Positions 3,752 through 55,600 of a stretch of DNA of 64,000 nt are shown here, one piece after another. Origin of the DNA: an uncultured Flavobacteriales bacterium (GTDB taxonomy: Bacteria > Bacteroidota > Bacteroidia > UBA10329); contig CALCGD010000249.1 of NCBI GenBank assembly GCA_937900875.1, positions 9,977 through 73,976 on the forward strand, given 5' to 3'. The position numbers and the translations under genes were made by a program. Below the pieces are notes generated by a model, which was not told where the DNA came from, did no database searches, and saw only the letters and a list, made by a program, of their open reading frames with translations. Every line of letters starts with the position of its first letter. Positions within the stretch are counted from its first letter, which is position 1.

Positions 3752-4297
3752 TTATTTTTTGTCTAGTAGGTTTTTAACTGCCTTTGTAAACTGGTTTCCT
3801 CGGTCTTCGTAGCTCTCGAATAAATCGTGGCTAGAGCAAGCTGGGGAAAGAATGACTTTGTCTCCTGGTTGAGCAAGAGCGATGGCCGCTTTAACAGCTT
3901 CTTCTGCGGTACTAGCCCCAACAATTACATCAGCAAAACTCATGAAGGTTTTAAACACGCTGCTATTCTCTCTGCCTAGGCAAACGATGCCTCTCACTTT
4001 ATCTGCAACCAATTCTTTCAGCATTCCGTAGTCCTGTCCGTCTTGTAATCCGCCTACTATCCAAACTGCAGTTCCTTGCAGCCTTTCTAGCGAATACCAA
4101 GTGAGGTCAACGTTGATGGCTTTAGAGTCATTGATAAATTCAATGTTGTTCCATTCGCCAATTAGCTCTTGACGATGTCTGGTGCTTTGCACATCAGACA
4201 CACTTTCTTCAAGAATTTGCTTTCTTAACTCCAACAGGCTATTGAACATTTTCTGTTCTTCGGTCTGCACCTCGTTATTCCAAGTTTTATTTTTCAT
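3752..4297 (-). CDS. stand-alone Mur-ligase C-terminal domain protein (diverged tandem partial copy of the murD 3' end)
   Basis: 181-aa ORF that aligns colinearly with the last ~160 residues of the adjacent MurD (4317..5651). Examples: FINDSKAINVDLTWYSLE vs FINDSKATNINSTWYALE; VWIVGG; SAEEAVKAA; LSPACSSHDLFESYEDRG vs LSPACASFDLFENYEDRG. Roughly half of aligned residues are identical by eye. Intact reading frame with its own start. Confidence 0.5.
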   Translation of the reverse strand: MKNKTWNNEVQTEEQKMFNSLLELRKQILEESVSDVQSTRHRQELIGEWNNIEFINDSKAINVDLTWYSLERLQGTAVWIVGGLQDGQDYGMLKELVADKVRGIVCLGRENSSVFKTFMSFADVIVGASTAEEAVKAAIALAQPGDKVILSPACSSHDLFESYEDRGNQFTKAVKNLLDKK

Positions 4298-35138: not shown

Positions 35139-37346
35139 TTAATGCCCGAACTCAGAAATAAACTTAATTCTAACTAGCCTTATCTCCTCTTCAGTATAAT
35201 CATCTTCGCCAAGCTCTTCTAAAGCAGCTTCTATGCTATCGCTTTCAGCTTCTTCTTGGAAGTACTCATAGATGTCGTCTTGTTTATCCTCGTCTACCGC
35301 GTTATTTATGTAATAATCGAGGTTTACTTTGGTGCCGGAGCTCACAATGTGTTCAATCTCTGTGAGTAATTCTTCCATTTTAAGACCTTTCGCATCTGCC
35401 ACATCTTCTAAATCTAGCTTGCGGTCAATACTCTGAATAATGTAAACCTTATTGCTCGATTTGTTTACGACTGTTTTCACAATCATATCCTGCTCGCGCT
35501 CAATCTCATTCTCTTCTACATACTGCTGAATGAGTTCTAGGAAAGGTTCTCCATACTTTTTAGCCTTTCCAGTTCCAACACCTGTAATATCGGTCAGTTC
35601 CTCCATCGTTATTGGATATCGGAATGCCATATCTTCTAATGATGGGTCTTGAAAAATCACAAATGGAGGAAGGTTATCTTCCTTAGAAATATCCTTTCTC
35701 AGGTCCTTCAGCATTCGGAGTAATTCATCGTCAGCCGCTCCAGGTCCTTTTAGTGCCCCAACAGGAATAGCGTCTTCAGCTTCAGTGGCGGCTTCAAAAT
35801 CATGATCAATTGTCATCATGAAAGAATGTGGCTTGTCCAAGAATTTATTCCCTTGCTCAGTGATTTTTAGAAGACCGTAATTTTCAATATCCTTAGACAA
35901 ATAACCATTAATAATGGTTTGCCTAACCAGCGACTGCCAATATCTATCACCTCGCTCTGTACCTTTTCCATATAGGTCAAGCGTGTCGTGTTTGTAAGAT
36001 TTAATGTTGGTGCTACTTGTACCCATTAGCACATTTATTACGTGCTTGATTTTAAATTTTTCCTTGATGTCTTGAACGGTTTGGATAATCATACCCATTT
36101 CGTTCTGTGCTTCTTCTTTCTTTTTTGGGTGCTTACAATTATCGCAATGCTCATCGCATCTCGCTTCATCAAATTTTTCTCCGAAATAATGCAAGATGAA
36201 TTTCCTTCTGCAAACAGAAGTTTCTACGTAGGTCACCATTTCGCCTAGCAATTGTTTCCCGATTTCTTGTTCAGAAATTGGTTTTCCTTGCATAAATTTC
36301 TCAAGCTTGGTTATGTCGTCATAACTATAAAAAGCTACGCAAACTCCTTCTCCACCATCTCTTCCGGCCCTTCCAGTTTCTTGGTAATAACCTTCCAAAC
36401 TCTTTGGAATGTCATGATGAACAACGAACCGAACATCTGGTTTGTCGATGCCCATTCCAAAGGCTATAGTTGCGCAAATCACGTCTGCATCTTCCATAAG
36501 AAATGCATCCTGATTTTTAACCCTAGTTCCTGCATCCAGTCCAGCGTGGTAAGGCAAAGCCTTAATGCCATTTACCTGAAGCGTTTCGGCCATTTCTTCC
36601 ACCTTTTTTCGGCTGAGACAATAGACTATACCAGACTTACCTTCGTGTTGTTTGATAAACTTGATAAGGTCGCGGGCAATATGCTTGGTTTTTGGACGAA
36701 TCTCGTAATACAGATTGTCTCTATTAAATGATGATTTGAAAACGCCTGCATCAGTCATTCCCAAATTTTTCTGAATGTCTTGCTGAACCTTTGGCGTAGC
36801 AGTAGCCGTTAATGCCATAATAGGAACGTTGCCGATGGCTTCTATCATCGGCCGTAACCGCCTGTATTCAGGTCTAAAATCATGTCCCCATTCCGAAATG
36901 CAATGGGCCTCATCAATTGCTACAAGTGAGATGTTGACACCTCTAAAGAAGTCGATATTTTCTTGCTTGTTCAACGATTCTGGCGCAACATAAAGAAGCT
37001 TGGTAATTCCCGCCTTAATATCGCTCCTTACTTGTTCTGCTTCACCTTTATTAAGAGACGAATTCAGAAAATGCGCTATACCGTTAACTGTGCCAAAACT
37101 TCTTATCGAATCAACCTGATTTTTCATCAGAGCGATAAGAGGAGATACGATTATTGCAGTACCTTCTGTGATGAGGGCTGGTAATTGATAACACAAAGAT
37201 TTGCCACCACCTGTTGGCATAATCACAAACGTGTCATTACCAGCAAGAACATTTTGAATAATCTTCTCTTGCTCTCCTTTAAACTTGTTAAACCCGAAAT
37301 GCGTTTTTAACGCTGCCTGCAGGTCTGTCCCAACTTCTATTTCCAT
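35139..37346 (-). CDS. recQ: ATP-dependent DNA helicase RecQ
   Basis: 735 aa; DEAH box (AIDEAHCISEWGHDFR), helicase C domain, RecQ-C Zn-binding cysteines (CDNC) and a C-terminal HRDC region. Confidence 0.9.
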   Translation of the reverse strand: MEIEVGTDLQAALKTHFGFNKFKGEQEKIIQNVLAGNDTFVIMPTGGGKSLCYQLPALITEGTAIIVSPLIALMKNQVDSIRSFGTVNGIAHFLNSSLNKGEAEQVRSDIKAGITKLLYVAPESLNKQENIDFFRGVNISLVAIDEAHCISEWGHDFRPEYRRLRPMIEAIGNVPIMALTATATPKVQQDIQKNLGMTDAGVFKSSFNRDNLYYEIRPKTKHIARDLIKFIKQHEGKSGIVYCLSRKKVEEMAETLQVNGIKALPYHAGLDAGTRVKNQDAFLMEDADVICATIAFGMGIDKPDVRFVVHHDIPKSLEGYYQETGRAGRDGGEGVCVAFYSYDDITKLEKFMQGKPISEQEIGKQLLGEMVTYVETSVCRRKFILHYFGEKFDEARCDEHCDNCKHPKKKEEAQNEMGMIIQTVQDIKEKFKIKHVINVLMGTSSTNIKSYKHDTLDLYGKGTERGDRYWQSLVRQTIINGYLSKDIENYGLLKITEQGNKFLDKPHSFMMTIDHDFEAATEAEDAIPVGALKGPGAADDELLRMLKDLRKDISKEDNLPPFVIFQDPSLEDMAFRYPITMEELTDITGVGTGKAKKYGEPFLELIQQYVEENEIEREQDMIVKTVVNKSSNKVYIIQSIDRKLDLEDVADAKGLKMEELLTEIEHIVSSGTKVNLDYYINNAVDEDKQDDIYEYFQEEAESDSIEAALEELGEDDYTEEEIRLVRIKFISEFGH

Positions 37347-37611
37347 TCTTTTTTTCCCGTGTTCACTAAAGATAGGGATTTGGCTTGGTGCTCAAAACCC
37401 TTTTTAGTCTTTTTATCCCAACTGGTAATTATACTCGACTAATTCCCATTTTGGGGCTGCAAAAGTGTTCATTTTAACTAAGTTAATCCCTTAATCAGAA
37501 CGGTTGTAACGCGTACATTTATCATTATTGTAGGCGCTTTTGCAATTTGACATTGTTGGAGCAATAATTCCTGTAGTAGAGTAATGTTCTGACATCGCTT
37601 TTTTTAACAAG

Positions 37612-38490
37612 ATGAGTAACCTAACTGTAATAATTCCGGCATTCAATGAAGAGCAATCTTTAAAGGTGCTTCTGCCTGAATTGCTCGATTTTGTAAAACA
37701 AAACCATCTTCAATTAATTATTGTAAACGATGGTTCTTCTGATGCAACATTAGAAGTGTTAAAAGGTTTTGAGACAAGTGCTAATTTTCAATACTTCAGT
37801 CATAAGGTTAACAGAGGATATGGTGGTGCAATAAAGACAGGAATACGCCATTCTACCACTAAATATTCTATTACTATTGATGCTGACGGGCAGCATGATT
37901 TGAATGATGTTCTTGCTTTACAAAATGCCATATTAGAAACGGATGCCGATATGATTGTTGGCAGTAGAATGGCCCAAAAAAATGCCTCGATATATAGAGG
38001 CATAGGGAAATGGCTTATAAGATGGTTTGCTAAGTTGCTTCTTCCAATTCATATCGATGATATTAATTCTGGTATGAAGATTTACAATACCGAAATGGCA
38101 AAAAGGTACATTCGAATTTGCCCAAATCATATGGCTTTTAGTGACATTATTGCTATGGTTTTTATCAGTAAAAAACACTTGGTATTAGAACAACCAATCA
38201 ATATTAAACCAAGAACAGCTGGTACTAGTACTATAAGTACGCTCACTGCTATTGAGACTGTAAAGGAAATCCTCAACATTGTCATTCTGTTTAATCCAAT
38301 GAGAGTGTTTTTTCCTATCGCTGTATTAAGCGTTGTTTTGGCGCTAGCTTGGGGCGTGCCAATTGCTTTAAATGGCCGCGGAGTAAGCACGGGTGCTATG
38401 CTTGGCTTTACCACAGGTTTGTTGTTTTTCTTCTTGGGATTGCTTGCAGAGCAGTTGTCGCAAATTCGAAGAGACAGCGTTGATGAATGA
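37612..38490 (+). CDS. polyprenyl-phosphate glycosyltransferase, GT2 family (GtrB/ArnC/DPM1-like)
   Basis: 292 aa; N-terminal GT-A domain (VIIPAFNEE, DGSSD, DADGQHD DxD motif) followed by two C-terminal TM helices. This is the architecture of GtrB/ArnC. Confidence 0.75.
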   Translation: MSNLTVIIPAFNEEQSLKVLLPELLDFVKQNHLQLIIVNDGSSDATLEVLKGFETSANFQYFSHKVNRGYGGAIKTGIRHSTTKYSITIDADGQHDLNDVLALQNAILETDADMIVGSRMAQKNASIYRGIGKWLIRWFAKLLLPIHIDDINSGMKIYNTEMAKRYIRICPNHMAFSDIIAMVFISKKHLVLEQPINIKPRTAGTSTISTLTAIETVKEILNIVILFNPMRVFFPIAVLSVVLALAWGVPIALNGRGVSTGAMLGFTTGLLFFFLGLLAEQLSQIRRDSVDE

Positions 38491-39406
38491 GCAAGATTTG
38501 CAGGTTAGAAAACGCTGGTATACACAGGTTATGGATGTGTACCGTCACAATAACATTTATATTCCTGGGTTTAATTCCTTCGCTCAATTCATGCTTAAAT
38601 CCAAAGCAGAGGCGCATTTTTCTGTTATTTCTCAAAGGAGTGTATCCGATAAGCAAATTATTGATGAATGGTTTGCTTCAAAAAATGTATTCTTTGGTTA
38701 TGGGGTGTTTAGAAGCGGCACTACGTTTTTAGCCGATTTCTTAAACAGGCACGCCTCTGGTGCAGTGGTGCAGCACGAGGCAAACGTGAACGACTATTGG
38801 TATTATGCACAAGCGATGCAATCAGACGTAGATGCCAATATTTACGTAGAAAACTACCGTTCAGCTGAGGTTTATTATCGACTAGAGGGAGTGGAACTTG
38901 GGACTTACGGAGAGATAAATCCATTTTTGAGAAGGCACGTGAAGGCACTAAAACAAGCGCTACCTAGGGCCAGGCAATTTCAGCTAGTTCGCGACCCAAG
39001 AAATGTTATTCGTTCTCTCATGTCTCGCGAACTTTTCGGGAGAAAAGACCCGATGGCTGATTTGATTTGTCCCCCAAAAGAAGACGAATATTTAGAGAAG
39101 TGGCCTAGTATGTCTCGTTTCGAAAAGTTGTGTTGGCTTTGGGCTGCAGACAATCGATTCATTCGTGAAAACACCAATCATGTTGCCAAATTTGAGTTAC
39201 TCAGAACTGACTTCAGTTATTTTGATGAAAAGATTGTATCCTTTTTGAATTTAGAGGTAAACCCTGATGCCTGGCAATCAGAAATATCTAAGGTGTTCAA
39301 TTCTACTCCCCGTTATACATTTCCGAAATACGCTGATTGGTCAATGGAGCACAAGACTCAATTTGATTCGATTTGCGCACAAGAAATGGCGTATTACGAC
39401 TATTGA
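38483..39406 (+). CDS. sulfotransferase family protein
   Basis: Start taken at MNEQ, overlapping the GT2 stop (ATGA). 5'-phosphosulfate-binding loop GVFRSGTTFLADFL and 3'-phosphate motif LVRDPRNVIRSLMS (RDP...S), as in PAPS-dependent sulfotransferases. No TM segment, so cytoplasmic. Confidence 0.55.
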   Translation: MNEQDLQVRKRWYTQVMDVYRHNNIYIPGFNSFAQFMLKSKAEAHFSVISQRSVSDKQIIDEWFASKNVFFGYGVFRSGTTFLADFLNRHASGAVVQHEANVNDYWYYAQAMQSDVDANIYVENYRSAEVYYRLEGVELGTYGEINPFLRRHVKALKQALPRARQFQLVRDPRNVIRSLMSRELFGRKDPMADLICPPKEDEYLEKWPSMSRFEKLCWLWAADNRFIRENTNHVAKFELLRTDFSYFDEKIVSFLNLEVNPDAWQSEISKVFNSTPRYTFPKYADWSMEHKTQFDSICAQEMAYYDY

Positions 39407-41373
39407 CCGTTTTTCAATTGTTGTATCGACCAATTCAGATTGCCTTTTGCGAGTGCGTAATCTGGTTTTAGAATAAGTGCTTTATTACAGGCCTTTAACG
39501 CCTCCTCATAAAGCCCCAACTTATTATAAGCACTACAAATGTTGTTGTAAGCTTCGGCATAGTTGGGCTTCAATTCTAAAGACTGATATGAAGCCTTAAT
39601 GCAGTTTTCGTACTGTTCAGCATTATAGTATTTCAAGCTTAGATTCAGATATGCCTCTGGAGTGTTTTGCCTAATCGTTTCTTGTTCCAATTGTTCTAAC
39701 TTTTTGGCCAATGTTATTGTTAAGGCATCAAGAAGTCCTTTCGCTTGTTGGTGACCTGGACTCAATTCGAGGGCTAGATTCAGGTGCTTTATTGCATCGT
39801 CTTGATGGCCATTACTTTGTAGCCAATTGGCATAGTGGTAATGGCAATCTGGATAACCAGGCCCCATTTGTACAGCTTGCTTTAGGTGTTTCTCGCCTTC
39901 GACAATTAGGGTTTGGTTTTTTGTTCTTATTCCCAGGGAGTTTTTGGCAATACCAAGATTAACGTACAAGTATGGATGCCCACCATAAGAGGTTTTTAAG
40001 GCACGTTCAAAAAAGGATATGGCCGATTCCATTCTGCCCATTCGCATTTCGGTGAGGCCGTAATTCATAAGGCCGCGACCATTATTAGGACTCTTTATTG
40101 TTACATCTTTCCACAAAGAGGCATCATTATCCCAAACCTCATTTCGCTGAAAAGTACCATGGGCGTGAGCGCCTAAAAAGCAGCTGAGGATGAGTGTAAC
40201 TGCCATTTTTGAAACCACTGATGGTTTTCCCTTTGTGATTGAATCGAAAGCTAAGTAACCGGCCCAAACTGATGCTATTACCAACCCGATGTATGGAAAA
40301 AATGTACGATGATGGTTCATTACTTCAGCAAGCGGAACAATACTCGAGCTAGGGATAAGCGCCACGTAAAACCAGAAAATTCCGAAAGCGATTGGAAGTG
40401 TTTTCCTGTTTAATGCGGCCTTAAAGGCTATGAATAAGGTGATTAATATTACCGTCAATCCAAACACCACCTTACCAGAGACTAAGTCCGTAATTAAGGC
40501 TAGGTCGGAATCTGCAGTGAGTCCTGTCGGATAGAAAAAGGTTTTGATATAAACCCAGAATATATAAGGTTGTGTATTTAGATATTCTAAGGCGTTTACA
40601 TCACTCGGTTTCCATGTTTCAGAAAACATGGATCGAGTGAAAAAATACATAGCAGCACCAAACAAAAAGAAGGGTAACGTGCCTTTTAATGAAGCCCGAA
40701 TTTTCGGAATCACTTTGGCTTTTTCGTCTTTCACGAAGAAAGAAGGCGTTTCTAACAGGAAGTCATAAAGGAATAAGATTGGTGCCAGCATCAGAGTTGT
40801 TGGCTTTGCCAAACACCCAATAATCAATGGGATTAAGGCAATTTCCTTGCTCCAGCCTTTGTTGCTTATGTAGATTAAAACAGCAGATAGAACCATCAAA
40901 GTGGAAAATCCATCTGACCGAGCGATGATGTAGTTAATGGTTTCAGCCGTGGCGGTATGAAACCCAAAAAACGAGGCGCCTATTACAGCTAGTAAGTAAT
41001 GTTTTTGGCCATCAGTTTTCTCAAAAATGCGGAGCAAAAGCAAGTACAATAACCCAAGCAGCAGAAGAAATTCTAGGTATATGTGCCAGTGAAAAACTTT
41101 AGGATTGAGCGATCCGGCTATCCAATAATCTATGGCATTTAAACTTGTAATTACTGGTCGGTATGCCTGATTTGTAGGCAAGCTGCTGGTAGTTTCAGAG
41201 TCCTGAAAAAATTGTGGGAGATTGTCAATGTTCTTTATAAAGCCATTGTTGACTATTGTGTGGCTGTCGTCAAAATGAAAACCATTATCGAAATGATTCC
41301 AATACACTGCTGTAAGCGCAGCGATAAGAAAAATGGCTAGGAAAAACGCAAAAGATTTGGAATTCATGTTCAT
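39400..41373 (-). CDS. TMTC-like GT-C glycosyltransferase fused to C-terminal TPR repeats
   Basis: 657 aa; ~440-aa polytopic membrane domain with a first-loop FHFDDSHTIVNNGFI motif, followed by ~200 aa of TPR repeats. The motif compares to FVHDDxxAIVNNP of eukaryotic TMTC O-mannosyltransferases, and to the DD/DE motif of GT-C enzymes such as ArnT and PMT. Confidence 0.55.
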   Translation of the reverse strand: MNMNSKSFAFFLAIFLIAALTAVYWNHFDNGFHFDDSHTIVNNGFIKNIDNLPQFFQDSETTSSLPTNQAYRPVITSLNAIDYWIAGSLNPKVFHWHIYLEFLLLLGLLYLLLLRIFEKTDGQKHYLLAVIGASFFGFHTATAETINYIIARSDGFSTLMVLSAVLIYISNKGWSKEIALIPLIIGCLAKPTTLMLAPILFLYDFLLETPSFFVKDEKAKVIPKIRASLKGTLPFFLFGAAMYFFTRSMFSETWKPSDVNALEYLNTQPYIFWVYIKTFFYPTGLTADSDLALITDLVSGKVVFGLTVILITLFIAFKAALNRKTLPIAFGIFWFYVALIPSSSIVPLAEVMNHHRTFFPYIGLVIASVWAGYLAFDSITKGKPSVVSKMAVTLILSCFLGAHAHGTFQRNEVWDNDASLWKDVTIKSPNNGRGLMNYGLTEMRMGRMESAISFFERALKTSYGGHPYLYVNLGIAKNSLGIRTKNQTLIVEGEKHLKQAVQMGPGYPDCHYHYANWLQSNGHQDDAIKHLNLALELSPGHQQAKGLLDALTITLAKKLEQLEQETIRQNTPEAYLNLSLKYYNAEQYENCIKASYQSLELKPNYAEAYNNICSAYNKLGLYEEALKACNKALILKPDYALAKGNLNWSIQQLKNGQ

Positions 41374-42392
41374 CTATTAGCCTTCGACACTTTGTCAATT
41401 AACCCGCTGATTGATAGAGAGTCAAAATGTTTGAGGTTCGAATATAGGGCAGGCAAACCAATTGTTGCTGACCAAAAGACTGAAATAAGCCGAGTAATAA
41501 CTCCAATTAGGAGACCATCTTCAAGTTGAAATCCAGCAGCAGAAAACACAACTCCAATCATTACTTCCTGAATACCCAAGTTGCCTGGTAATAGTCGGAT
41601 TAAGAGCACAACTCTTAAGACCAACACTACTAAAAAAACGGATGGAAACTCACTTTCAACTCCTAAAACTTCAGCAGTTTTCCAAAACCAGATTGCTTGT
41701 ATTGTGACTGAGACGCTAGTTGAAATGAGCAGGCCAAAAAAGAGTTTAGTGTTTCTAAACTGATCTGCTAATTGTAACTGAACATTGATGAAAAAGTTGA
41801 TGATTTTGTTCAATGCACCATCGCCATCTCTTGGTTTGGATGGCAAAACATGAAGCGTAGCCCAAAGACCAGCTAATGCAATTCCCATTAGTATTATGGT
41901 AAATCGAAGTTCGAAAGATTGAACTGGAATTAAATACGCTAAAGCCAGCCCAACAATCACGGTTAAAAAAATGCTATTGAGGAAAACCATGAGACCCAGC
42001 GAAAACCCTTTGCTTAGATCGAGGTTATACTTGTGCTTCGAATAGAAAACCTGAAATAGCATGCCACCCTTCATAGGCATGAGGTATAAAAACAAGTGCA
42101 TCATTAAGGGCAGCGTAACGATTTCGCTTTTATCGATCTTGAGTTGATAATGAAGCCAAAACCCCATCCACATTATGACGCCAAACGAGATGTGAAACAA
42201 CAATCCCAACCCTAGCAGTAGAAAGATTTGAACCGTAGAGGTTGAACTGAATAAATGCGATAAATCGACTTCTCGAAACGTGAATGCCACCACACCAAAA
42301 AAGAGTGCGGCCGCCAAACTGAAAACCCCTATAGAACCTAACTTGGACAAATGAAAATCACTGAGTGTGCAAAATAGGTAGAAGAGCGCCAT
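41370..42392 (-). CDS. flippase-like domain membrane protein (UPF0104 / LPG-synthase TM-region family)
   Basis: 340 aa; about eight TM helices; LPGNLGIQEVMIGVVFSAAG resembles the PGGLGxxE motif of this family; 4-nt overlap with the downstream GT-C gene. Confidence 0.5.
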   Translation of the reverse strand: MALFYLFCTLSDFHLSKLGSIGVFSLAAALFFGVVAFTFREVDLSHLFSSTSTVQIFLLLGLGLLFHISFGVIMWMGFWLHYQLKIDKSEIVTLPLMMHLFLYLMPMKGGMLFQVFYSKHKYNLDLSKGFSLGLMVFLNSIFLTVIVGLALAYLIPVQSFELRFTIILMGIALAGLWATLHVLPSKPRDGDGALNKIINFFINVQLQLADQFRNTKLFFGLLISTSVSVTIQAIWFWKTAEVLGVESEFPSVFLVVLVLRVVLLIRLLPGNLGIQEVMIGVVFSAAGFQLEDGLLIGVITRLISVFWSATIGLPALYSNLKHFDSLSISGLIDKVSKANR

Positions 42393-42401
42393 TTTACTGC
42401 C

Positions 42402-43268
42402 TTGAGCACATTACATTTGCAGCCAATGAGTAAAGAAATTCCAGCAGAAGAATTGCCAGAAGAAGGCGACATGTCTTTTTTGGAGCATTTGGAAGTGTTG
42501 CGTTGGCATTTGGTCCGTTCCGTAGCGTCCATTTTTGTTTTCGCAACTGCGGCATTCATAGCTAAGTCATTCATTTTTGATACCGTTTTGCTAGGGCCTA
42601 AAAGCGGTGATTTTTGGACTTACAGAATGCTTTGCAAGCTCTCTGATAAATTTGGCCTCAGCGATTTGTTGTGTATTACCGACATTCCATTCGAACTTAT
42701 TAATATCAGCATGGCTGGTCAGTTTACCACGCATATTGTGGTTTCAATAATTGCTGGCTTCGTGGTTGCTTTTCCATACATCATATTTGAAGTTTGGAGG
42801 TTTATCAAGCCTGGTTTACATAAAACCGAGAGAAAATATGCTAACGGGATGGTGTTTTATACATCGTTTCTATTTATCACGGGCGTGCTGTTTGGTTACT
42901 ACATAATAGCGCCATTGTCGGTGAATTTTTTAGGCGGATATCACGTAAGCGATTTAGTAACCAATCAAATTGATTTGAACAGTTATTTCAGTACGGTTTC
43001 CACACTTGTTTTGGCAACTGGACTGGTGTTTGAGTTGCCTATGTTCATGTATTTTCTTACAAAAATTGGAGTGGTTACGCCTCAGTCGTTAAGGCAATAT
43101 AGAAGGCACGCGGTAGTTGGTATTCTAGTTATGGCAGCCATCATTACTCCGCCTGATGTTTCAAGCCAAGTATTGGTCTTCTTCCCGTTAATGTTGCTTT
43201 ATGAAGTAAGTATTGGGGTTTCGGCATTGGTTTTGCGCAATCAGGAAAAGGCAAATGCCGATATTTGA
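42402..43268 (+). CDS. tatC: twin-arginine translocase subunit TatC
   Basis: 288 aa; six TM helices; conserved FLEHLEVLRWHL N-terminal helix. Confidence 0.85.
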   Translation: MSTLHLQPMSKEIPAEELPEEGDMSFLEHLEVLRWHLVRSVASIFVFATAAFIAKSFIFDTVLLGPKSGDFWTYRMLCKLSDKFGLSDLLCITDIPFELINISMAGQFTTHIVVSIIAGFVVAFPYIIFEVWRFIKPGLHKTERKYANGMVFYTSFLFITGVLFGYYIIAPLSVNFLGGYHVSDLVTNQIDLNSYFSTVSTLVLATGLVFELPMFMYFLTKIGVVTPQSLRQYRRHAVVGILVMAAIITPPDVSSQVLVFFPLMLLYEVSIGVSALVLRNQEKANADI

Positions 43269-46623: not shown

Positions 46624-48201
46624 CTATTCTCTACCGTAAATCCTAGCGAAGTGAATTCCTTTCTTGCTTTCCCAAATCTTGGCGAAGGCACTGTCCGATT
46701 CAACCGCTGCCAATGCACCATTATCGTTATTAAAACTCAAGGTTAGTACGTAGTCTGTCGCAGGAGTAATCGCATTATCGATACATGATGGAAGTTTATC
46801 TGTATTTCGGTAGCCCTGTACTGGGTTTTGCAAAGCTTGTTGAACGATAAAAGTTCCGGAAATACAACTATCAAGGCTCACATTATTCTCTAAATAGACA
46901 ATGCTCTCTTGAATCAATTGTATCTGGTTTACATATTTCATGTTGTCAGAGTTGTTCATTCTGGCATCCGCCTTATTGGCCAAATGGTAGAACATTAACC
47001 CTAATGAAAGCATACCCACATTGAATAGGAAAGCAGATTTTTTAGTGGCAAGGTTAAAAATGGAGACAGCGCAAATTATTACCAACGGTATGAGGAGTAA
47101 AAGGTATCTGCCAATCACAAAATGAGCTGAGGTGAACAGAATTAACGCCAAGCAGACCAAGCCAACTAGTGGGAAAAACAGATGGTTTTTCGAATCGTGT
47201 TTCGAGAAAAAAGTTGCCAGCCAAATTGTGGCTACGATTATTACAGCTGGAAAAACCCAGTAATAATACCAGTTGGGCAACCAAGAACCTGTTCCTTCCA
47301 TGGTTAAGAAAGTGATCCCTATAAATCCGAATAATACCCTAAGAATTCTTGGTCCGCTTTGCCAAGCTAGTGAAGCAGAAGCTAGCGCCACACCTAGTAA
47401 AATTGGTCGTTGTTGTTCTCCGAAAACTGTGCTGAAAACCAATTCTCTTTTGTGTCGCCAAACTTCAGGATCAGTATCAAACATGCTCATGTGTTCAGGA
47501 AACATAAACCAACCAAACTGATTGTATTGCACGAGATAGTAAACAGATGTAAGAACAACCGGAACTCCAACTGACAAAAATTCGAAAACTCGTTTCTTTG
47601 AAAAATCTCGGTCTTTAGAGAACTGAAAAAGTTCCAAAAAGCCAATCATTGCCAGAATTAGGATTCCAGTTTCTTTAGTTAGCAACATAGCTGTTGCCGA
47701 CAGGATAAATAGCCAATACCGTTTTTGTAGATAGAACAAAATGGTGAGCGCAACAAAGAGGCTTAATTGAACTTCTGGTAACAGAAAACCAGCTTGTTGT
47801 ATGAAAATTGGCTGCAAAGCAAAAATTGCAGCAGACCAAAAACCTACTTGTTTTGAAGCAACCTGACTCCCTAATTTGTAAACAACCCAAATGAGTAAAA
47901 CGGATAGAAAAACGGAGAATGCATGGACTGCTGAAAAACTAGTCCCAAACATTGTCATCCAGCAAACAGCCAAAAAGTGAAATAAGATTGGATGCCCTCT
48001 CGAAAGTTCGGGGTCTATAGAATTTGGCGAAAGGCTTGGGCCGTTTTCGAACATATCGAATACCGCTGGGGCGTATACCCACGCTTCGTCCCAGAAATAA
48101 GGAAGGTTGAGAAACGGCAGATTAATGAGAACGAATAAGAAGCAGATAAGTGCAACCGCAACATCCCAAATACAAGCGTATTTCCTAATGGTTGAAAACA
48201 A
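46624..48201 (-). CDS. GT-C glycosyltransferase, ArnT/PMT-like (GT83/GT39 family)
   Basis: 525 aa polytopic membrane protein; first-loop LPYFWDEAWVYAPAVFDM matches the DEARYA...EM signature of ArnT-like transferases. Confidence 0.55.
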   Translation of the reverse strand: MFSTIRKYACIWDVAVALICFLFVLINLPFLNLPYFWDEAWVYAPAVFDMFENGPSLSPNSIDPELSRGHPILFHFLAVCWMTMFGTSFSAVHAFSVFLSVLLIWVVYKLGSQVASKQVGFWSAAIFALQPIFIQQAGFLLPEVQLSLFVALTILFYLQKRYWLFILSATAMLLTKETGILILAMIGFLELFQFSKDRDFSKKRVFEFLSVGVPVVLTSVYYLVQYNQFGWFMFPEHMSMFDTDPEVWRHKRELVFSTVFGEQQRPILLGVALASASLAWQSGPRILRVLFGFIGITFLTMEGTGSWLPNWYYYWVFPAVIIVATIWLATFFSKHDSKNHLFFPLVGLVCLALILFTSAHFVIGRYLLLLIPLVIICAVSIFNLATKKSAFLFNVGMLSLGLMFYHLANKADARMNNSDNMKYVNQIQLIQESIVYLENNVSLDSCISGTFIVQQALQNPVQGYRNTDKLPSCIDNAITPATDYVLTLSFNNDNGALAAVESDSAFAKIWESKKGIHFARIYGRE

Positions 48202-51572: not shown

Positions 51573-52697
51573 TTGCTTTCAAACATGACCAGACTACTTT
51601 TCGTCTTCCTCATACTTTCTGCCTCTTTTATGCTTGGAAATCAGGCATTTGCACAAACACCTAAGTACTCTAATGAATTTTTGGCAATTGGCGTTGGAGC
51701 TCGCGGAATGGGTATGGCCAACAGCATGGTGGCTAGTGTAAATGATGTGACAGGAGGGTATTGGAATCCTGCTGCATTGCCGTTGGCTCAAAGAAAGTGG
51801 CAGGTTTCGCTCATGCACTCAGAGTATTTTGCTGGAATCGCTAAGTACGATTACGCAGCAATTTCAGCACCTATTCTTGATGAACATACTCAAGCGGCTT
51901 TCACTTTTATTCGATTTGGGGTTGATGATATTCCAAATACCACTCAGCTTTTAGATGATGAGGGCAACATAGACTACGATAGAGTTACGGCCTTTACAGC
52001 TGCAGATTATGCTTTTCAGTTTAGTGTTGGTCGAAAAAGCCCCAAAATACCGGGATTGAGATATGGCGGAACTGTTAAAGTCGTGTATCGTCATGTAGGA
52101 AAGTTTGCCAGTTCTTGGGGGTTTGGCTTGGATGGTGGTGTTCAGTATGACCTAGGTAAATGGAAATTCGGTTTAATGGCAAGAGACGTAACTTCTACAT
52201 TCAATGCCTGGAATTTCACTCTAGATGATGAAACCAAAGAAGTTTGGCTTCAAACGGGAAATGAGATTCCTAAAAACTCATTGGAGGTTACGCTTCCAAA
52301 AATGATTTTAGGAGCTGGTCGCAGATTCAATATCTACAAAAAGTTTGGTGTTTATACCGAGTTTAACTTCGATTTTACGTTTGATGGAAAGCGTTCTGTT
52401 CTCATAAAAGGCGACCCAATAAGTATTGAGCCGCATTGGGGAATGGAATTATTTTACTCCGATTTTGTATATGTCCGTTTTGGTGTAACCAACATTCAGG
52501 ACTATACAAATGATGATGGCGATAAAATTTGGACTTGGCAGCCAAATGTTGGTGTAGGAGTCCGAATTAAAGATTTCTATATCGATTATGCTTTAACAGA
52601 TGTAGGAAACCAATCCGTTGCGTTGTTTAGTAATGTATTCTCCCTGCGGGTAGACATACATAAAGACATGTTTAAAAAGAAAGAGAAGATTGAATGA
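51573..52697 (+). CDS. T9SS-associated outer-membrane beta-barrel of the PorV/PorQ (FadL-like) family
   Basis: 374 aa; signal peptide; N-terminal EFLAIGVGARGMGMANSMVA...GGYWNPAAL resembles the FLxIxxxARxxGMG...NPA signature of PorV/PorQ shuttle proteins. The stop overlaps the next start (ATGA at 52694..52697). Confidence 0.5.
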   Translation: MLSNMTRLLFVFLILSASFMLGNQAFAQTPKYSNEFLAIGVGARGMGMANSMVASVNDVTGGYWNPAALPLAQRKWQVSLMHSEYFAGIAKYDYAAISAPILDEHTQAAFTFIRFGVDDIPNTTQLLDDEGNIDYDRVTAFTAADYAFQFSVGRKSPKIPGLRYGGTVKVVYRHVGKFASSWGFGLDGGVQYDLGKWKFGLMARDVTSTFNAWNFTLDDETKEVWLQTGNEIPKNSLEVTLPKMILGAGRRFNIYKKFGVYTEFNFDFTFDGKRSVLIKGDPISIEPHWGMELFYSDFVYVRFGVTNIQDYTNDDGDKIWTWQPNVGVGVRIKDFYIDYALTDVGNQSVALFSNVFSLRVDIHKDMFKKKEKIE

Positions 52698-55600
52698 GGA
52701 AACTTTTACTGATAGCTTTCTTGCTTCAGTCTGTTTTTGCCTTTTCGCAGCCGTATGGTAACGAATGGGTGAATGCCTCTCAACCTCATTTCAAATTTAA
52801 CATACACCAAGAGGGAGTTTATCGCATTAGCTATCAGGTTTTATCCGATGCTTTGGCCGCGCAAGGCCTAAACCTCAATTCCATTGATCCTCGAAATATT
52901 CAAATTTTTGCCCGTGGCGAAGAACAATATCTGTATGTAGGAGGTGAGGCTGATGGGAATTTTGATACCAACGATTTTATTGAATTCTATGCTCGCAAAA
53001 ATGATGGGGTATTAGATACGGAGGTCTATTTCGATAATCCGCTCAATAACGCCAACCCGTACCATAGTCTAATAAACGACACAATTCGGTACTTCCTTAC
53101 TTGGAACAACTCTATTGCCAATGCGAGAATGACGTTGGAATCGGATGTCAATTTTACTGGATACACCCAGTCTTCGTACATATTAAGAGATGAAATAGAC
53201 GAGTTGCACGACACCTATTTTACTGGTCAAAACTACGTGGTAACAGGCAGTCCAAGCCCGATTTATTCTGGTGGAGAAGGTTTTTACGGTTACTATTTTG
53301 ATGCAGGCTGGACTGATAGTTTTTGGAATTTAGGAACTGTGTTTAGAGATGCTTCTGGCCCAGATGCAGAGGTGGAAATTGGAATAGTTGGCGCCTCTTT
53401 CGATGATAAAAACCTTCATATTCAAGGTCCATCTATCAGTTTTGATACGGTAATGGAAAAATACAACGGCTATCGGTTCAATTTCAATGTGCCAACGGCC
53501 TCTCTCGGAGTAAATGCGTCCAACTTCACATTCTCTATGAACAACCCTGTTACTAACGGTTCGTATCGTGCAATTGTTGGTTTTGTAAGAGTACGATACC
53601 CACAAACTCCAAATGTTGGAAACGGACAAACAGCAAAGTTTATCGTTGACGATAACCCAAATTATCCAAGTCAAGCCAAGAGTTATGTTCAGTTGGCTGG
53701 GTATACGCAAGGAACTCCACGACTTTACGACTTAACCAATCATAAACGGATTTCAGTTGGTGGTTCGCCAGGTAGTTACCGCTTTCTAATACCAGACAAC
53801 GGCAGTTTAAAACACTGCTATTTAACCAACGAATCAGGAATTGCATCAAACGCTATTTCTGTTCTTACACCTGCTGGATCAAATGGCTCTGTTTTCTTCA
53901 CGGATTTCGATGCTTTGGACGCAAATACAGACTATTTCGCCATCGGAAATGCTTCTATGTTTGCGGAGGTTCAGCAATACGCGGCTTATCGAAATGTATC
54001 GGGTTATAATGCGATTGCTATAGATGCTGATGAACTCTATAACCAGTTTGGGTGGGGAATAAATAAGCACCCGCTGGCTATTCGAAAATTTGCCAATTGG
54101 GCGTTAGGAAACCTCACCGCCCCTTCGCATATCTTCCTCATAGGCAAATCGGTTTCGTCTCTTTCTGCTCGAAATAATCCCGCTCTTTTTGCAGAGATTA
54201 TGGTGCCAAGTTTTGGTCATCCGCCTAGCGATAATATGCTCACATCATATCTCGGAACGGGAACTTATTTAGAAGAAACAGGAATTCCTGTTGGGAGATT
54301 GGCCGCAAAAAGTGGTGATGACGTGACCGAGTATCTAGATAAGATAATGGAGTACGAAGCGTTGCCGAACAATCTTTGGATGAAACGAATCCTGCACTTT
54401 TCGGGTGGTGGTACGCAAAACGAAGTTGCCCAAATTCGTTCGTTTATGGATTCGTACAAAACCATAATTGAAGACACGCTTTACGGTGCCAGTGTTCAAA
54501 CTTTTCAGAAAACGAGTTCAGAGCCTTTTCAAATTACACAGGTCGATTCTATTACAGATTTGGTTGAGACCGGTGTTCAGTTGATTAATTTCTTTGGACA
54601 TGGGTCAGCCGTTGGTTTCGATGTCAGTATAGATCATCCTTCTCTGTTCAATAATCAAAACGGTAAGTATCCGTTTATGATGGCGAATTCATGTTTTGCA
54701 GGAGATATCCACCAACCCTCAAGTGTTCCAACTTCAATTTCTGAAAACTGGGTACTCGAGCCACAAGGTGGAGCGCTTGGATTTTTAGCTACAATTGGTC
54801 CAGGTAGCAGGTTTTACCTCAATAGTTATTGCACTAATTTCTACCACAGTGTTAGTCATTTAGAGTACTATAACACCATTGGCTGGCAGATTAAGAAAGC
54901 CATTAGAGAAAATGCGCAGCCGTTTAATGACATTACCAAGTTGCACAATCTGGAGTATACGCTCCATGGCGATCCAGCATTAAACATCACCAACAGGGAG
55001 AAACCAGATTTAATGGTTAATCAGCCTGCTATTTGGTTTGAACCGGAAGAGATTACCACCGAGATGGCTGATTTTGAAATGTTTGTGAAGATTACCAATT
55101 TGGGTGCTGCTTTCACAGATTCTTTTGTAGTAGAGATAACTCGACAACTTCCAACCGGACAAATTGATACCACTATCAGTATTATTCATCCGCCTGTTTA
55201 TTACCTAGATACTATGAGTGTATTTATCCCAATCGATTTGATTGATGGATTGGGTATTAATACCATTTGCATTTCGCTCGATAATACGCAAATCATAGAT
55301 GAACTTTCGGAAGTGAACAATGATGTTTGTATTGACGTGAACGTCTTATCTCCAGATATTGTGCCTATTTGGCCATATAAGTTCGCTGTAATTCCAGACC
55401 AAGGTCCAACCTTGAAATGTTCTACAGGTAGCCCTTTTGCACCAGAAAAAACGTATAGGATTGAACTGGATACAACCGATTTATTCAATAGTCCGTTAAT
55501 GCAGTTTACCACCATCACCCAGGGTGGCGGTGTTGTTAATTGGACACCAGGCTTACTTCAAAACATGCCAGATAGTACAGTCTATTTTTGGCGAGCAAGC

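What the first reader, a model, noticed from the sequence alone, without database searches (positions are those of the whole stretch)
38483..39406. PAPS-type sulfotransferase translationally coupled to a lipid-carrier glycosyltransferase
Both nucleotide-binding motifs of PAPS-dependent sulfotransferases are present: the 5'-PSB loop RSGTT in GVFRSGTTFLADFL and the 3'-PB motif RDPRNVIRSLMS. The gene start overlaps the stop of the GtrB-like GT2. Sulfotransferases are uncommon in bacterial envelope-glycan loci. Coupling to a polyprenyl-P-sugar synthase suggests sulfation of the lipid-linked sugar, or of the final glycoconjugate precursor, on the cytoplasmic face.
Basis: partly seen in the sequence, partly recalled or inferred. 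Interest (0 to 1): 0.55.

Follow-up and report, generated by a model that had tools for sequence, protein, structure and literature searches.

The report
Sulfotransferase inside a lipid-carrier glycosylation cassette
A rare, uncharacterised sulfotransferase sits inside a four-gene membrane glycosylation cassette of an uncultured marine flavobacterium, and most likely adds sulfate to a lipid-carried sugar before that sugar is exported and attached to a cell-envelope target.

Summary
Window 38483-39406 (+) encodes a 307-aa soluble protein. It passes Pfam Sulfotransfer_3 and carries both quoted motifs. Its start overlaps the stop of the upstream GT2 by 8 nt. A confident AlphaFold model matches only PAPS sulfotransferases among its top 40 hits.

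The GT2 resembles ArnC, DPMS and GtrB, which load a sugar onto polyprenyl phosphate. Convergent with the sulfotransferase (ST) are a TPR membrane protein whose motifs follow the TMTC-type GT-C order, and a flippase-like LPG_synthase_TM protein.

The ST family is small and was found only in MAGs. In 19 of 22 independent loci from several phyla the ST lies next to a GT2. Candidate flippases and GT-C enzymes of different types usually accompany it. One locus has an APS kinase directly downstream.

A close relative has the same chromosomal site with an 81%-identical GT2. It lacks the ST and the flippase-like gene, and its GT-C is only 44% identical.

Best reading: the ST sulfates the polyprenyl-phosphate-linked sugar on the cytoplasmic face before flipping and GT-C transfer. 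The acceptor is inferred, not shown. PAPS synthesis genes could not be checked for this genome. This is a new variant of a known kind and of moderate interest.

The parts
37612..38490 (+). GT2 of the polyprenyl-phosphate sugar synthase type (292 aa; ArnC/DPMS/GtrB-like, two C-terminal transmembrane segments)
   Evidence: Pfam Glycos_transf_2 E = 2.4e-27. The best NCBIfam models are PpgS, AglJ, ArnC, PgfS and DolP-hexose transferase, all below their equivalog cut-offs. The best PDB sequence match is ArnC over the full length (aa 3-288, E = 8.5e-14), then DPMS (2.7e-9) and GtrB (3e-6). Hydrophobic segments at aa 220-255 and 260-280.
38483..39406 (+). Sulfotransferase (307 aa, soluble, Sulfotransfer_3 family)
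   Evidence: No transmembrane segment or signal-like N-terminus.
38483..38490 (+). 8-nt overlap ATGAATGA: the ST start codon lies inside the end of the GT2 gene, an arrangement compatible with translational coupling
   Evidence: The same overlap is kept in L005 and L007-L011.
38711..38725 (+). 5'-phosphosulfate-binding loop R77-S78-G79-T80-T81
   Evidence: R77, S78 and G79 are invariant in alignment A1. An RxG-type PSB is the hallmark by which NodH is placed in PF13469 (PMC11625862).
38774..38779 (+). H98-E99, candidate catalytic base at the end of strand 94-98
   Evidence: H98 is invariant and E99 is at least 90% conserved. The catalytic role is inferred from my knowledge of TPST, 3-OST (Glu) and SULT (His) enzymes.
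38990..39025 (+). 3'-phosphate-binding motif RDPRNVIRSLMS (R170...S178)
   Evidence: R170 and S178 are invariant.
39400..41373 (-). TPR membrane protein (657 aa): about 11 N-terminal membrane helices plus a C-terminal TPR domain; TMTC-like candidate GT-C glycosyltransferase. Its 3' end overlaps the ST 3' end by 7 nt.
   Evidence: TPR Pfam hits at aa 427-647. AF2 pLDDT 88.5 with a helix pattern like the 11-TM TMTC topology. The invariant motifs DD35-36, NQxYRP68-73, RSD152-154, K190, D288 and HR355-356 follow the order of TMTC motifs M1-M5 and M7. IMG names a fragment from the same 90% cluster 'protein O-mannosyl-transferase'. There is no significant Pfam or PDB hit for the membrane domain.
41370..42392 (-). 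LPG_synthase_TM (MprF-flippase-like) membrane protein, 340 aa; overlaps the start of the TPR gene by 4 nt; candidate flippase for the lipid-linked sugar
   Evidence: Pfam PF03706 E = 2e-20. Weak hits to MprF and to TIGR00374 'flippase-like domain'. It co-occurs with the ST in the window, L005, L007-L010, L014, L020 and L047.

Best explanation
The gene encodes a cytoplasmic, PAPS-dependent sulfotransferase that works as the fourth component of a Gtr/Arn-type extracytoplasmic glycosylation system. Proposed order of events: (1) the GT2 (37612-38490) transfers a monosaccharide from a nucleotide sugar to polyprenyl (undecaprenyl) phosphate at the inner face of the cytoplasmic membrane; (2) the sulfotransferase, made from the same message with overlapping stop and start codons, sulfates that lipid-linked sugar using PAPS; (3) the LPG_synthase_TM-type protein (41370-42392) flips the anionic product; (4) the TMTC-like TPR membrane glycosyltransferase (39400-41373) transfers the sulfo-sugar to a periplasmic or envelope acceptor, probably a protein, given the TPR domain and the TMTC resemblance. 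Shown here: the sulfotransferase family and fold, the GT2 class, the gene overlaps, and the conserved co-occurrence. Inferred: the acceptor of the sulfotransferase, the flippase role, the GT-C activity, the identity of the sugar, and the final target.
For: Identity of the ST: Pfam hit above threshold; invariant PSB and PB motifs; confident model whose top 40 PDB fold matches are all PAPS sulfotransferases. Cytoplasmic location: no transmembrane segment or signal peptide. PAPS exists only in the cytoplasm (general knowledge) and GT-C enzymes act outside it (PMC11127046), so sulfation must precede flipping.

Linkage: of 22 independent loci with full-length orthologues, 19 have a GT2 within about 2.3 kb. 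Thirteen have a GT-C candidate (11 TMTC-like, 2 PMT_2). Twelve have an adjacent flippase candidate (LPG_synthase_TM, GtrA, DUF2304, or Polysacc_synt/MurJ). The four-gene cassette also occurs in unrelated flanks (L009, L010, L047), so it moves as a unit. The ST stays with the GT2 while the GT-C type changes, which points to the donor branch rather than the acceptor.

PAPS link: an APS kinase lies immediately downstream of the ST in L012.

Natural experiment: L048 is as closely related to the window as the ST-carrying L007 (RecQ 86%, DUF5686 87%, LptB 90%). It has the same site with an 81%-identical GT2, but no ST, no LPG_synthase_TM, and a GT-C only 44% identical, against 72% in L007. The step before the ST is therefore unchanged and the steps after it differ.

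Precedents: Agl7-dependent sulfation of DolP-bound hexose in Haloferax (PMC3892788). From my own knowledge, not checked here: bacterial editing of polyprenyl-P-linked monosaccharides by ArnD and DprE1/E2.
Against: There is no biochemical data for any member, and all carriers are MAGs. No sulfate-activation genes lie in the 64-kb window, and only one of 45 related loci has an adjacent APS kinase. The GT-C assignment for the TPR protein rests on motif order, topology and a third-party name. Profile searches of its membrane domain against Pfam and the PDB found nothing significant, and hhalign against two PMT_2 proteins gave about 1% probability. L001/L002 carry the ST with the TPR protein but no GT2 nearby, and L011 and L021 lack the LPG_synthase_TM gene. 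The N-terminal 65 residues show only a modest amphipathic moment, at most 0.41, so membrane docking is not evident from sequence. The divergent GT-C in L048 could also reflect ordinary serotype-like variation in the acceptor rather than a change of donor.
Confidence: 0.5

Rival explanations
1. The sulfotransferase modifies the acceptor rather than the donor. It would sulfate a cytoplasmically assembled, lipid-linked glycan or another envelope precursor, which is later exported and then glycosylated by the GT-C using an unsulfated polyprenyl-P-sugar.
For: L012, L014, L017 and L030 place the ST among other glycan-synthesis genes: GT1, UDP-GlcNAc 2-epimerase, a Wzx-like flippase, and second sulfotransferases. 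The GT-C differs sharply between the ST-carrying and ST-free alleles, which could reflect a changed acceptor.
Against: The window cassette and its Flavobacteriales relatives contain no other glycan-assembly genes. The flanks are RecQ, CtaA, TatC and LptB housekeeping genes. The constant partner across phyla is the GT2, while the GT-C type varies.
Confidence: 0.15
2. The sulfotransferase acts before the GT2, on the nucleotide sugar or a soluble sugar precursor, and the GT2 then loads an already sulfated sugar onto the lipid carrier.
For: The stop/start overlap with the GT2 fits either order of action. The ST is soluble.
Against: The GT2 of the ST-free relative L048 is 81% identical to the window GT2. 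That is closer than the GT2s of most ST-carrying loci (54-79%), so the GT2 shows no adaptation to a sulfated donor. To my knowledge, sulfated nucleotide sugars as glycosyl donors are very rare. The known precedent places sulfation on the lipid-linked sugar (PMC3892788).
Confidence: 0.12
3. The enzyme is a TPST-like protein tyrosine sulfotransferase. It would sulfate a protein in the cytoplasm, and that protein is later exported and glycosylated by the TPR-bearing GT-C.
For: The best fold matches are tyrosylprotein sulfotransferases (tick TPST, human TPST1/2; E = 1.5e-6 to 1e-4, TM about 0.5). The PSB is Arg-type, as I recall for TPST and RaxST.
Against: The similarity is low (13-16% identity, TM about 0.5) and not clearly better than to the carbohydrate or lipid sulfotransferases Stf9 (TMq 0.55), NDST and 3-OST. 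No candidate substrate peptide gene is conserved next to it. The conserved partner is a sugar-loading GT2. Five invariant Trp residues fit sugar binding, though that is inference.
Confidence: 0.05
4. The adjacency is incidental. The enzyme sulfates an unrelated lipid or small metabolite.
For: Three full-length orthologue loci show no GT2 nearby: L001/L002, L013 and L022, the last two on short or truncated contigs. Core-only relatives that lack the N-terminal extension (below about 36% identity) mostly show no GT2 in the flanks.
Against: GT2 adjacency holds in 19 of 22 independent loci across Bacteroidota and MAGs labelled Gammaproteobacteria, Deltaproteobacteria, Nitrospiraceae, Victivallaceae and others, in different gene orders and flanks. 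The overlapping reading frames are conserved.
Confidence: 0.08

Closest known systems
Three-component (GtrA/GtrB/Gtr*, ArnC/ArnEF/ArnT-type) extracytoplasmic glycosylation systems
   Same: A GT2 charges polyprenyl phosphate, and its best solved relative is ArnC. There is a small or medium membrane protein as a candidate flippase, and a large polytopic glycosyltransferase candidate with an extracytoplasmic domain. The genes are clustered (PMC11127046).
   Different: A PAPS-type sulfotransferase is an integral, conserved fourth gene. No such combination turned up in the literature searches. The flippase candidate is MprF-like (LPG_synthase_TM) rather than GtrA, SMR or MATE. The GT-C candidate is TMTC-like with TPR repeats rather than Gtr* or ArnT.
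Haloferax volcanii low-salt N-glycan pathway (Agl5/Agl6/Agl7)
   Same: A hexose is added to dolichol phosphate and the lipid-linked sugar is then sulfated. The authors suggest that sulfation may be needed for translocation (PMC3892788).
   Different: That pathway is archaeal, builds a tetrasaccharide, and transfers it to Asn through the oligosaccharyltransferase. I made no sequence comparison with Agl7. Here the system is bacterial, appears to carry a single sugar, and has a TMTC-like transferase.
Sulfotransfer_3 (PF13469) enzymes such as NodH; fold relatives TPST1/2, Stf9, HS 3-OST and NDST
   Same: Arg-type 5'-PSB loop (RSGT), 3'-PB Arg/Ser, and the sulfotransferase fold (PMC11625862).
   Different: Only 13-16% identity to any solved structure, and no PDB hit by sequence. 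No NCBIfam model matches. The subfamily has its own conserved 65-residue N-terminal helical extension and a Trp/Cys-rich C-terminal half. Its genomic partners also differ.
Eukaryotic TMTC1-4 protein O-mannosyltransferases (GT-C/PMT clan)
   Same: For the neighbouring TPR protein: a cytoplasmic N-terminus, about 11 membrane helices and a C-terminal TPR domain. The motifs DD, xxxxYRP, RxD, K(E/P), D(W/L) and (E/H)R occur in the same order and at similar positions as TMTC3 motifs M1-M5 and M7.
   Different: The window protein has no significant Pfam TMTC_DUF1736 hit. The mannose-contacting 'SHKS' is 'TNQA' here. The donor sugar and the acceptor are unknown.

Membership tests
PAPS-dependent sulfotransferases, Pfam Sulfotransfer_3 (PF13469) | Profile score above the curated gathering threshold | tested here: met
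   36.9 bits against 27, E = 6.1e-9, aa 71-259 covering profile positions 3-214 of 216. Most homologues also carry PF13469.
PAPS-dependent sulfotransferases, Pfam Sulfotransfer_3 (PF13469) | 5'-phosphosulfate-binding loop ([K/R]-x-G-[T/S]) after the first strand | tested here: met
   R77-S78-G79-T80 follows strand 68-73. R77, S78 and G79 are invariant in 26 sequences.
PAPS-dependent sulfotransferases, Pfam Sulfotransfer_3 (PF13469) | 3'-phosphate-binding motif (Arg ... Ser) | tested here: met
   R170 and S178 are invariant, at the end of strand 164-169 and in helix 172-180.
PAPS-dependent sulfotransferases, Pfam Sulfotransfer_3 (PF13469) | Sulfotransferase alpha/beta fold | tested here: met
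   AF2 pLDDT 90.7, pTM 0.89. The Foldseek PDB top 40 are all PAPS sulfotransferases, best E = 1.5e-6, TM about 0.5.
PAPS-dependent sulfotransferases, Pfam Sulfotransfer_3 (PF13469) | Catalytic base (His or Glu) correctly placed | tested here: inconclusive
   H98 is invariant and E99 is at least 90% conserved at the end of strand 94-98. No residue-level superposition on TPST or 3-OST was available.
PAPS-dependent sulfotransferases, Pfam Sulfotransfer_3 (PF13469) | PAPS-dependent sulfuryl transfer activity, and a PAPS supply in the cell | not testable with these tools
   No cysD, cysN or cysC in the window. An APS kinase is adjacent to the orthologue in L012 only. The rest of the genome could not be reached.
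Three-component extracytoplasmic glycosylation system (Gtr/Arn type) | Polyprenyl-phosphate glycosyltransferase (GT2 / GT-A with a C-terminal transmembrane hairpin) | tested here: met
   Full-length match to ArnC (E = 8.5e-14), plus DPMS and GtrB. NCBIfam top hits are all polyprenyl-P sugar synthases. Two C-terminal hydrophobic segments.
Three-component extracytoplasmic glycosylation system (Gtr/Arn type) | Dedicated flippase for the lipid-linked sugar | tested here: inconclusive
   An LPG_synthase_TM protein (E = 2e-20) is co-transcribed with the TPR gene. The family is named 'flippase-like' by NCBIfam, but the hit is weak (E = 0.0095). Orthologous loci carry GtrA or DUF2304 instead. Flippase activity is not shown.
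Three-component extracytoplasmic glycosylation system (Gtr/Arn type) | GT-C fold glycosyltransferase | tested here: inconclusive
TMTC-type O-mannosyltransferases (for the TPR neighbour) | Multi-pass N-terminal domain plus a C-terminal TPR domain, with a DD motif in the first extracytoplasmic loop | tested here: met
   Helix map; TPR hits; D35-D36 invariant in 24 sequences; motif definitions from PMC7801869.
TMTC-type O-mannosyltransferases (for the TPR neighbour) | Pfam TMTC_DUF1736 loop domain | tested here: not met
   No hit in the window protein. One of 11 homologues hits at E = 0.092. The protein is therefore TMTC-like in layout and is not filed as a TMTC family member.
Tyrosylprotein sulfotransferases (TPST/RaxST) | Closest structural class and a peptide-binding cleft | tested here: inconclusive
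   TPSTs are the top fold hits, but with TM about 0.5 and 13-16% identity, no better than Stf9 (TMq 0.55) and close to NDST and 3-OST. The genomic context points to a sugar-lipid acceptor.

The most novel reading that the evidence does not exclude
Some uncultured marine Flavobacteriales, and scattered MAGs of other phyla, may run a bacterial pathway not described before. In it a single sugar is sulfated while attached to undecaprenyl phosphate, flipped by an MprF-like flippase, and transferred by a TMTC-like GT-C onto periplasmic or surface proteins. The module of ST, flippase and GT-C would be swapped in and out at a fixed RecQ-TatC chromosomal site next to an unchanged GT2, giving sulfated and unsulfated surface glycoforms among close relatives.
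Probability: 0.35. Interest if true: 0.7.

Novelty: new variant of a known kind. Interest (0 to 1): 0.55.

Why it matters
Only a few bacterial carbohydrate sulfotransferases with known acceptors have been characterised. The literature searches run here found sulfation of a polyprenyl-phosphate-linked sugar only in haloarchaea. A conserved bacterial cassette that pairs such an enzyme with a lipid-carrier GT2, a flippase candidate and a GT-C candidate gives a defined four-gene system that can be expressed heterologously. It would let one test three things: whether bacteria export sulfated sugars on lipid carriers, what bacterial TMTC-like proteins do, and how marine Bacteroidota make anionic surface glycans. 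It could also supply a tool for placing sulfo-sugars on proteins or glycans in glycoengineering. If the enzyme instead acts on some other acceptor, it is simply one more uncharacterised member of Sulfotransfer_3.

Tried and rejected
1. Sequence search of the ST against the PDB gave only noise (E > 0.2). NCBIfam had no model. Family assignment therefore rests on Pfam, motifs and fold.
3. I tested whether ST-linked GT-Cs carry a charge change near the donor site ('NHHR'/'DTDL' against 'NDHR'/'DTDW'). It held for 6 of 6 in alignment A2 but failed on loci: the ST-linked L001, L018 and L021 are NDHR, and L046, which has no ST nearby, is NHHR. I rejected it as phylogenetic signal.
4. The ST N-terminus as a membrane-docking amphipathic helix: the hydrophobic moment is at most 0.41, which is not convincing.
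5. Horizontal acquisition judged by composition: GC is flat at 0.37-0.43 across 30-50 kb, so there is no signal.
6. PAPS genes: none in the window. A phmmer search with the L012 APS kinase against all fetched loci found only itself.
7. Literature searches for a bacterial sulfotransferase within a three-component or GT-C system found no such system.
Full report
**Observation**

The ORF at 38483-39406 (+) is real and encodes 307 aa. Both quoted peptides are present: GVFRSGTTFLADFL at aa 74-87 and RDPRNVIRSLMS at aa 170-181. The ATG at 38483 lies inside the last codons of the upstream GT2 (stop at 38488-38490), giving the 8-nt overlap ATGAATGA. An in-frame GTG at 38393 is a mechanical alternative start. 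All full-length homologues are 305-312 aa and begin at the position of the ATG. The 3' end of the gene also overlaps the 3' end of the convergent 657-aa gene by 7 nt.

**What the protein is**

- Pfam Sulfotransfer_3 matches above its gathering score (36.9 against 27 bits, E = 6.1e-9, nearly the whole profile).
- No NCBIfam model matches, and there is no PDB relative by sequence.
- In an alignment of 26 homologues down to 31% identity, these residues are invariant: R77, S78, G79 (5'-PSB loop), H98, R170, S178 (3'-PB), five Trp and two Cys. E99 is at least 90% conserved.
- The AlphaFold2 model is confident (pLDDT 90.7, pTM 0.89).
- Its 40 best Foldseek matches in the PDB are all PAPS-dependent sulfotransferases: TPST1/2, SULT2A1, schistosome ST, Stf9, CurM-ST, 3-OST and NDST. 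The best E is 1.5e-6, TM is about 0.5 and identity is 13-16%.
- The protein has no hydrophobic segment or signal-like N-terminus, so it is cytoplasmic, where PAPS is available.

It is therefore a divergent but genuine member of the PAPS sulfotransferase superfamily. Its Arg-type PSB loop is the feature that places NodH in PF13469 (PMC11625862).

**Rarity**

- A search of 5.8 billion clustered proteins gave only 75 clusters, mostly Flavobacteriales MAGs.
- An exhaustive profile search of 1.84 billion 50%-identity representatives gave 205 proteins at E <= 1e-30. Only about eight of these cover the conserved 65-residue N-terminal extension.
- A scan of one genome for each of 185,579 species found 39 loci, every one in a MAG.

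**Neighbours in the window**

- The upstream GT2 (292 aa) is best matched in the PDB by ArnC over its full length (E = 8.5e-14), then by DPMS and GtrB.
- Its best NCBIfam models are all polyprenyl-phosphate sugar synthases: PpgS, AglJ, ArnC, PgfS and DolP-hexose transferase. All score below their equivalog cut-offs, so the sugar is unknown.
- It has two C-terminal hydrophobic segments.
- Convergent with the ST is a 657-aa protein. Its C-terminal 230 aa are TPR repeats. Its N-terminal 420 aa form about 11 membrane helices in a confident model (pLDDT 88.5).
- Upstream of that gene, overlapping it by 4 nt, is an LPG_synthase_TM (MprF-flippase-like) protein (Pfam E = 2e-20).
- The surroundings are housekeeping genes: the dcw cluster, gld genes, RecQ, CtaA, TatC and LptB. 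GC content is flat. The organism is a member of the Bacteroidota.

**Is the TPR protein a GT-C?**

The invariant residues of the family do follow the order and approximate positions of the TMTC motifs defined in PMC7801869:

| Motif in the window protein | TMTC motif |
|---|---|
| DD35-36 | M1 |
| NQAYRP68-73 | M2 (SHKSYRP) |
| R152-x-D154 | M3 |
| K190 | M4 |
| D288/D290 | M5 |
| H355-R356 | M7 |

The topology is also the same as TMTC: N-terminus inside, 11 helices, TPR domain outside. IMG labels a fragment of the same 90% cluster 'protein O-mannosyl-transferase'. I treat it as a TMTC-like GT-C candidate and do not file it as a family member.

**Comparative genomics**

I examined 22 independent loci that encode full-length orthologues: the window, L001, L003, L005, L007-L022, L030 and L047.

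- 19 have a GT2 within about 2.3 kb.
- 11 have the TMTC-like TPR protein, and 2 (L012, L016) have a PMT_2-type GT-C instead.
- 9 have an LPG_synthase_TM gene. The others have GtrA (L003), DUF2304 (L016, which also carries MurJ) or a Polysacc_synt flippase (L017).

Further points:

- In L012 an APS kinase lies immediately downstream of the ST.
- L014 and L017 carry a second sulfotransferase (Sulfotransfer_1). L030 has an ArnD-like deacetylase and a GNAT between the GT2 and the ST.
- The whole four-gene cassette occurs with unrelated flanks in L009 and L010, and rearranged in L047.
- The linkage therefore holds across phyla, gene orders and GT-C types. The constant partner of the ST is the lipid-carrier GT2.

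**A natural experiment**

L048 (Flavobacteriales GCA_021741075.1) has the same chromosomal site: TatC, then the TPR gene and the GT2 convergent, then RecQ, CtaA and GldD. It has no ST and no LPG_synthase_TM.

| Identity to the window | L048 (no ST) | L007 (has ST) |
|---|---|---|
| RecQ | 86% | 86% |
| CtaA | 73% | 74% |
| DUF5686 | 87% | 78% |
| LptB | 90% | not in the locus |
| GT2 | 81% | 79% |
| TPR protein | 44% | 72% |

Between close relatives the GT2 is unchanged, while the ST, the flippase-like gene and the GT-C allele change together.

**Mechanism**

- PAPS is cytoplasmic and GT-C enzymes act outside the cytoplasm (PMC11127046). The ST must therefore act before flipping.
- The unchanged GT2 argues against a sulfated nucleotide-sugar donor.
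- The ST follows the GT2 whatever the GT-C type. This argues for the donor branch rather than the acceptor.
- The most economical model has four steps. The GT2 makes polyprenyl-P-sugar. The ST sulfates it. A flippase-like protein translocates the anionic lipid. The TMTC-like enzyme transfers the sulfo-sugar to an envelope acceptor, possibly a protein.
- A direct precedent is Haloferax Agl7, which contributes to sulfation of DolP-bound hexose. The authors suggest that this sulfation may be needed for translocation (PMC3892788).
- From my own knowledge, not checked here, bacterial editing of a lipid-linked monosaccharide before flipping is known for ArnD and DprE1/E2.
- The acceptor, the sugar, the flippase role and the final target are all inferred.

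**Weak points**

- No member of the family has been studied, and no cultured carrier was found.
- No sulfate-activation genes lie in the window. The rest of the genome could not be examined.
- The GT-C assignment lacks a statistical match.
- L001/L002 lack a nearby GT2.
- A proposed charge change in ST-linked GT-Cs (NHHR against NDHR) did not survive a check on more loci.

**Novelty and verdict**

The enzyme class is known. The arrangement is a variant I could not find described in the literature held here: a sulfotransferase as a conserved fourth gene of a lipid-carrier, flippase and GT-C cassette, gained or lost together with its downstream partners at a fixed chromosomal site. Interest is moderate, at 0.55. 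The case is clean and testable but rests on context, not biochemistry.

Noticed in passing
L048:5007-11312 (Flavobacteriales GCA_021741075.1), compared with window 35139-43268: A close relative has the same RecQ-TatC site with an 81%-identical GT2. It has no sulfotransferase, no LPG_synthase_TM gene, and a TPR membrane protein only 44% identical, while flanking housekeeping genes are 73-90% identical. This looks like a cassette swap at a fixed locus.
   Followed up: yes
window 46624-48201 (-): A second GT-C candidate lies directly after lptB, 5 kb from the cassette: PMT_2 (E = 2.4e-9), DUF2079, and the NCBIfam AZOBR_p60025 'cell surface glycopolymer formation' domain. It is absent at this position in L005. 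Whether it uses the same lipid-linked donor is unknown.
   Followed up: partly
window 3752-4297 (-): A stand-alone 181-aa ORF sits between murD and ftsW in the dcw cluster. It is 50% identical to the C-terminal domain (aa 274-444) of the adjacent full-length MurD (E = 1e-58). This is a diverged partial duplicate of murD, not a recent copy.
   Followed up: partly
L012:7315-16060: In a deltaproteobacterial MAG the ST orthologue sits in one co-directional run: WaaP/Kdo-like kinase, GT2, ST, APS kinase, GFO/IDH/MocA oxidoreductase, hexapeptide acyltransferase, UDP-GlcNAc 2-epimerase, PMT_2 GT-C. This is the only locus with sulfate activation encoded next to the ST.
   Followed up: partly
L014:11980-12837 and L017:5956-6798: Second sulfotransferases, of the Sulfotransfer_1 type, occur in the same clusters as the ST orthologue. 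This hints at multiple sulfation in some lineages.
   Followed up: no
L030:4884-9209: Gene order is GT2, ArnD-like polysaccharide deacetylase (with DUF3473), GNAT, ST orthologue, alpha/beta hydrolase. The deacetylase suggests that the lipid-linked HexNAc is also edited there, as in the Arn pathway. N-sulfation is conceivable but untested.
   Followed up: no
window 39400-39406: The sulfotransferase gene and the convergent TPR gene overlap by 7 nt at their 3' ends, leaving no room for an intergenic terminator. Transcripts from the two strands must read into each other.
   Followed up: no
window 51573-57736 (+): A 374-aa ORF with no Pfam hit is followed, with a 4-nt overlap, by a 1680-aa Peptidase_C25 (gingipain-like) protein with a C-terminal FlgD_ig-like domain. 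It is probably a large T9SS-secreted protease.
   Followed up: no
(P0085/P0120 on one 187-kb contig; P0083/P0119 on one 9.7-kb contig; P0096/P0141 on one 50.5-kb contig): Several genomes appear to carry two paralogous TMTC-like TPR membrane proteins (about 53-70% identical to the window protein) on the same contig, judging by matching contig lengths. One GT2 may therefore feed more than one transferase.
   Followed up: no
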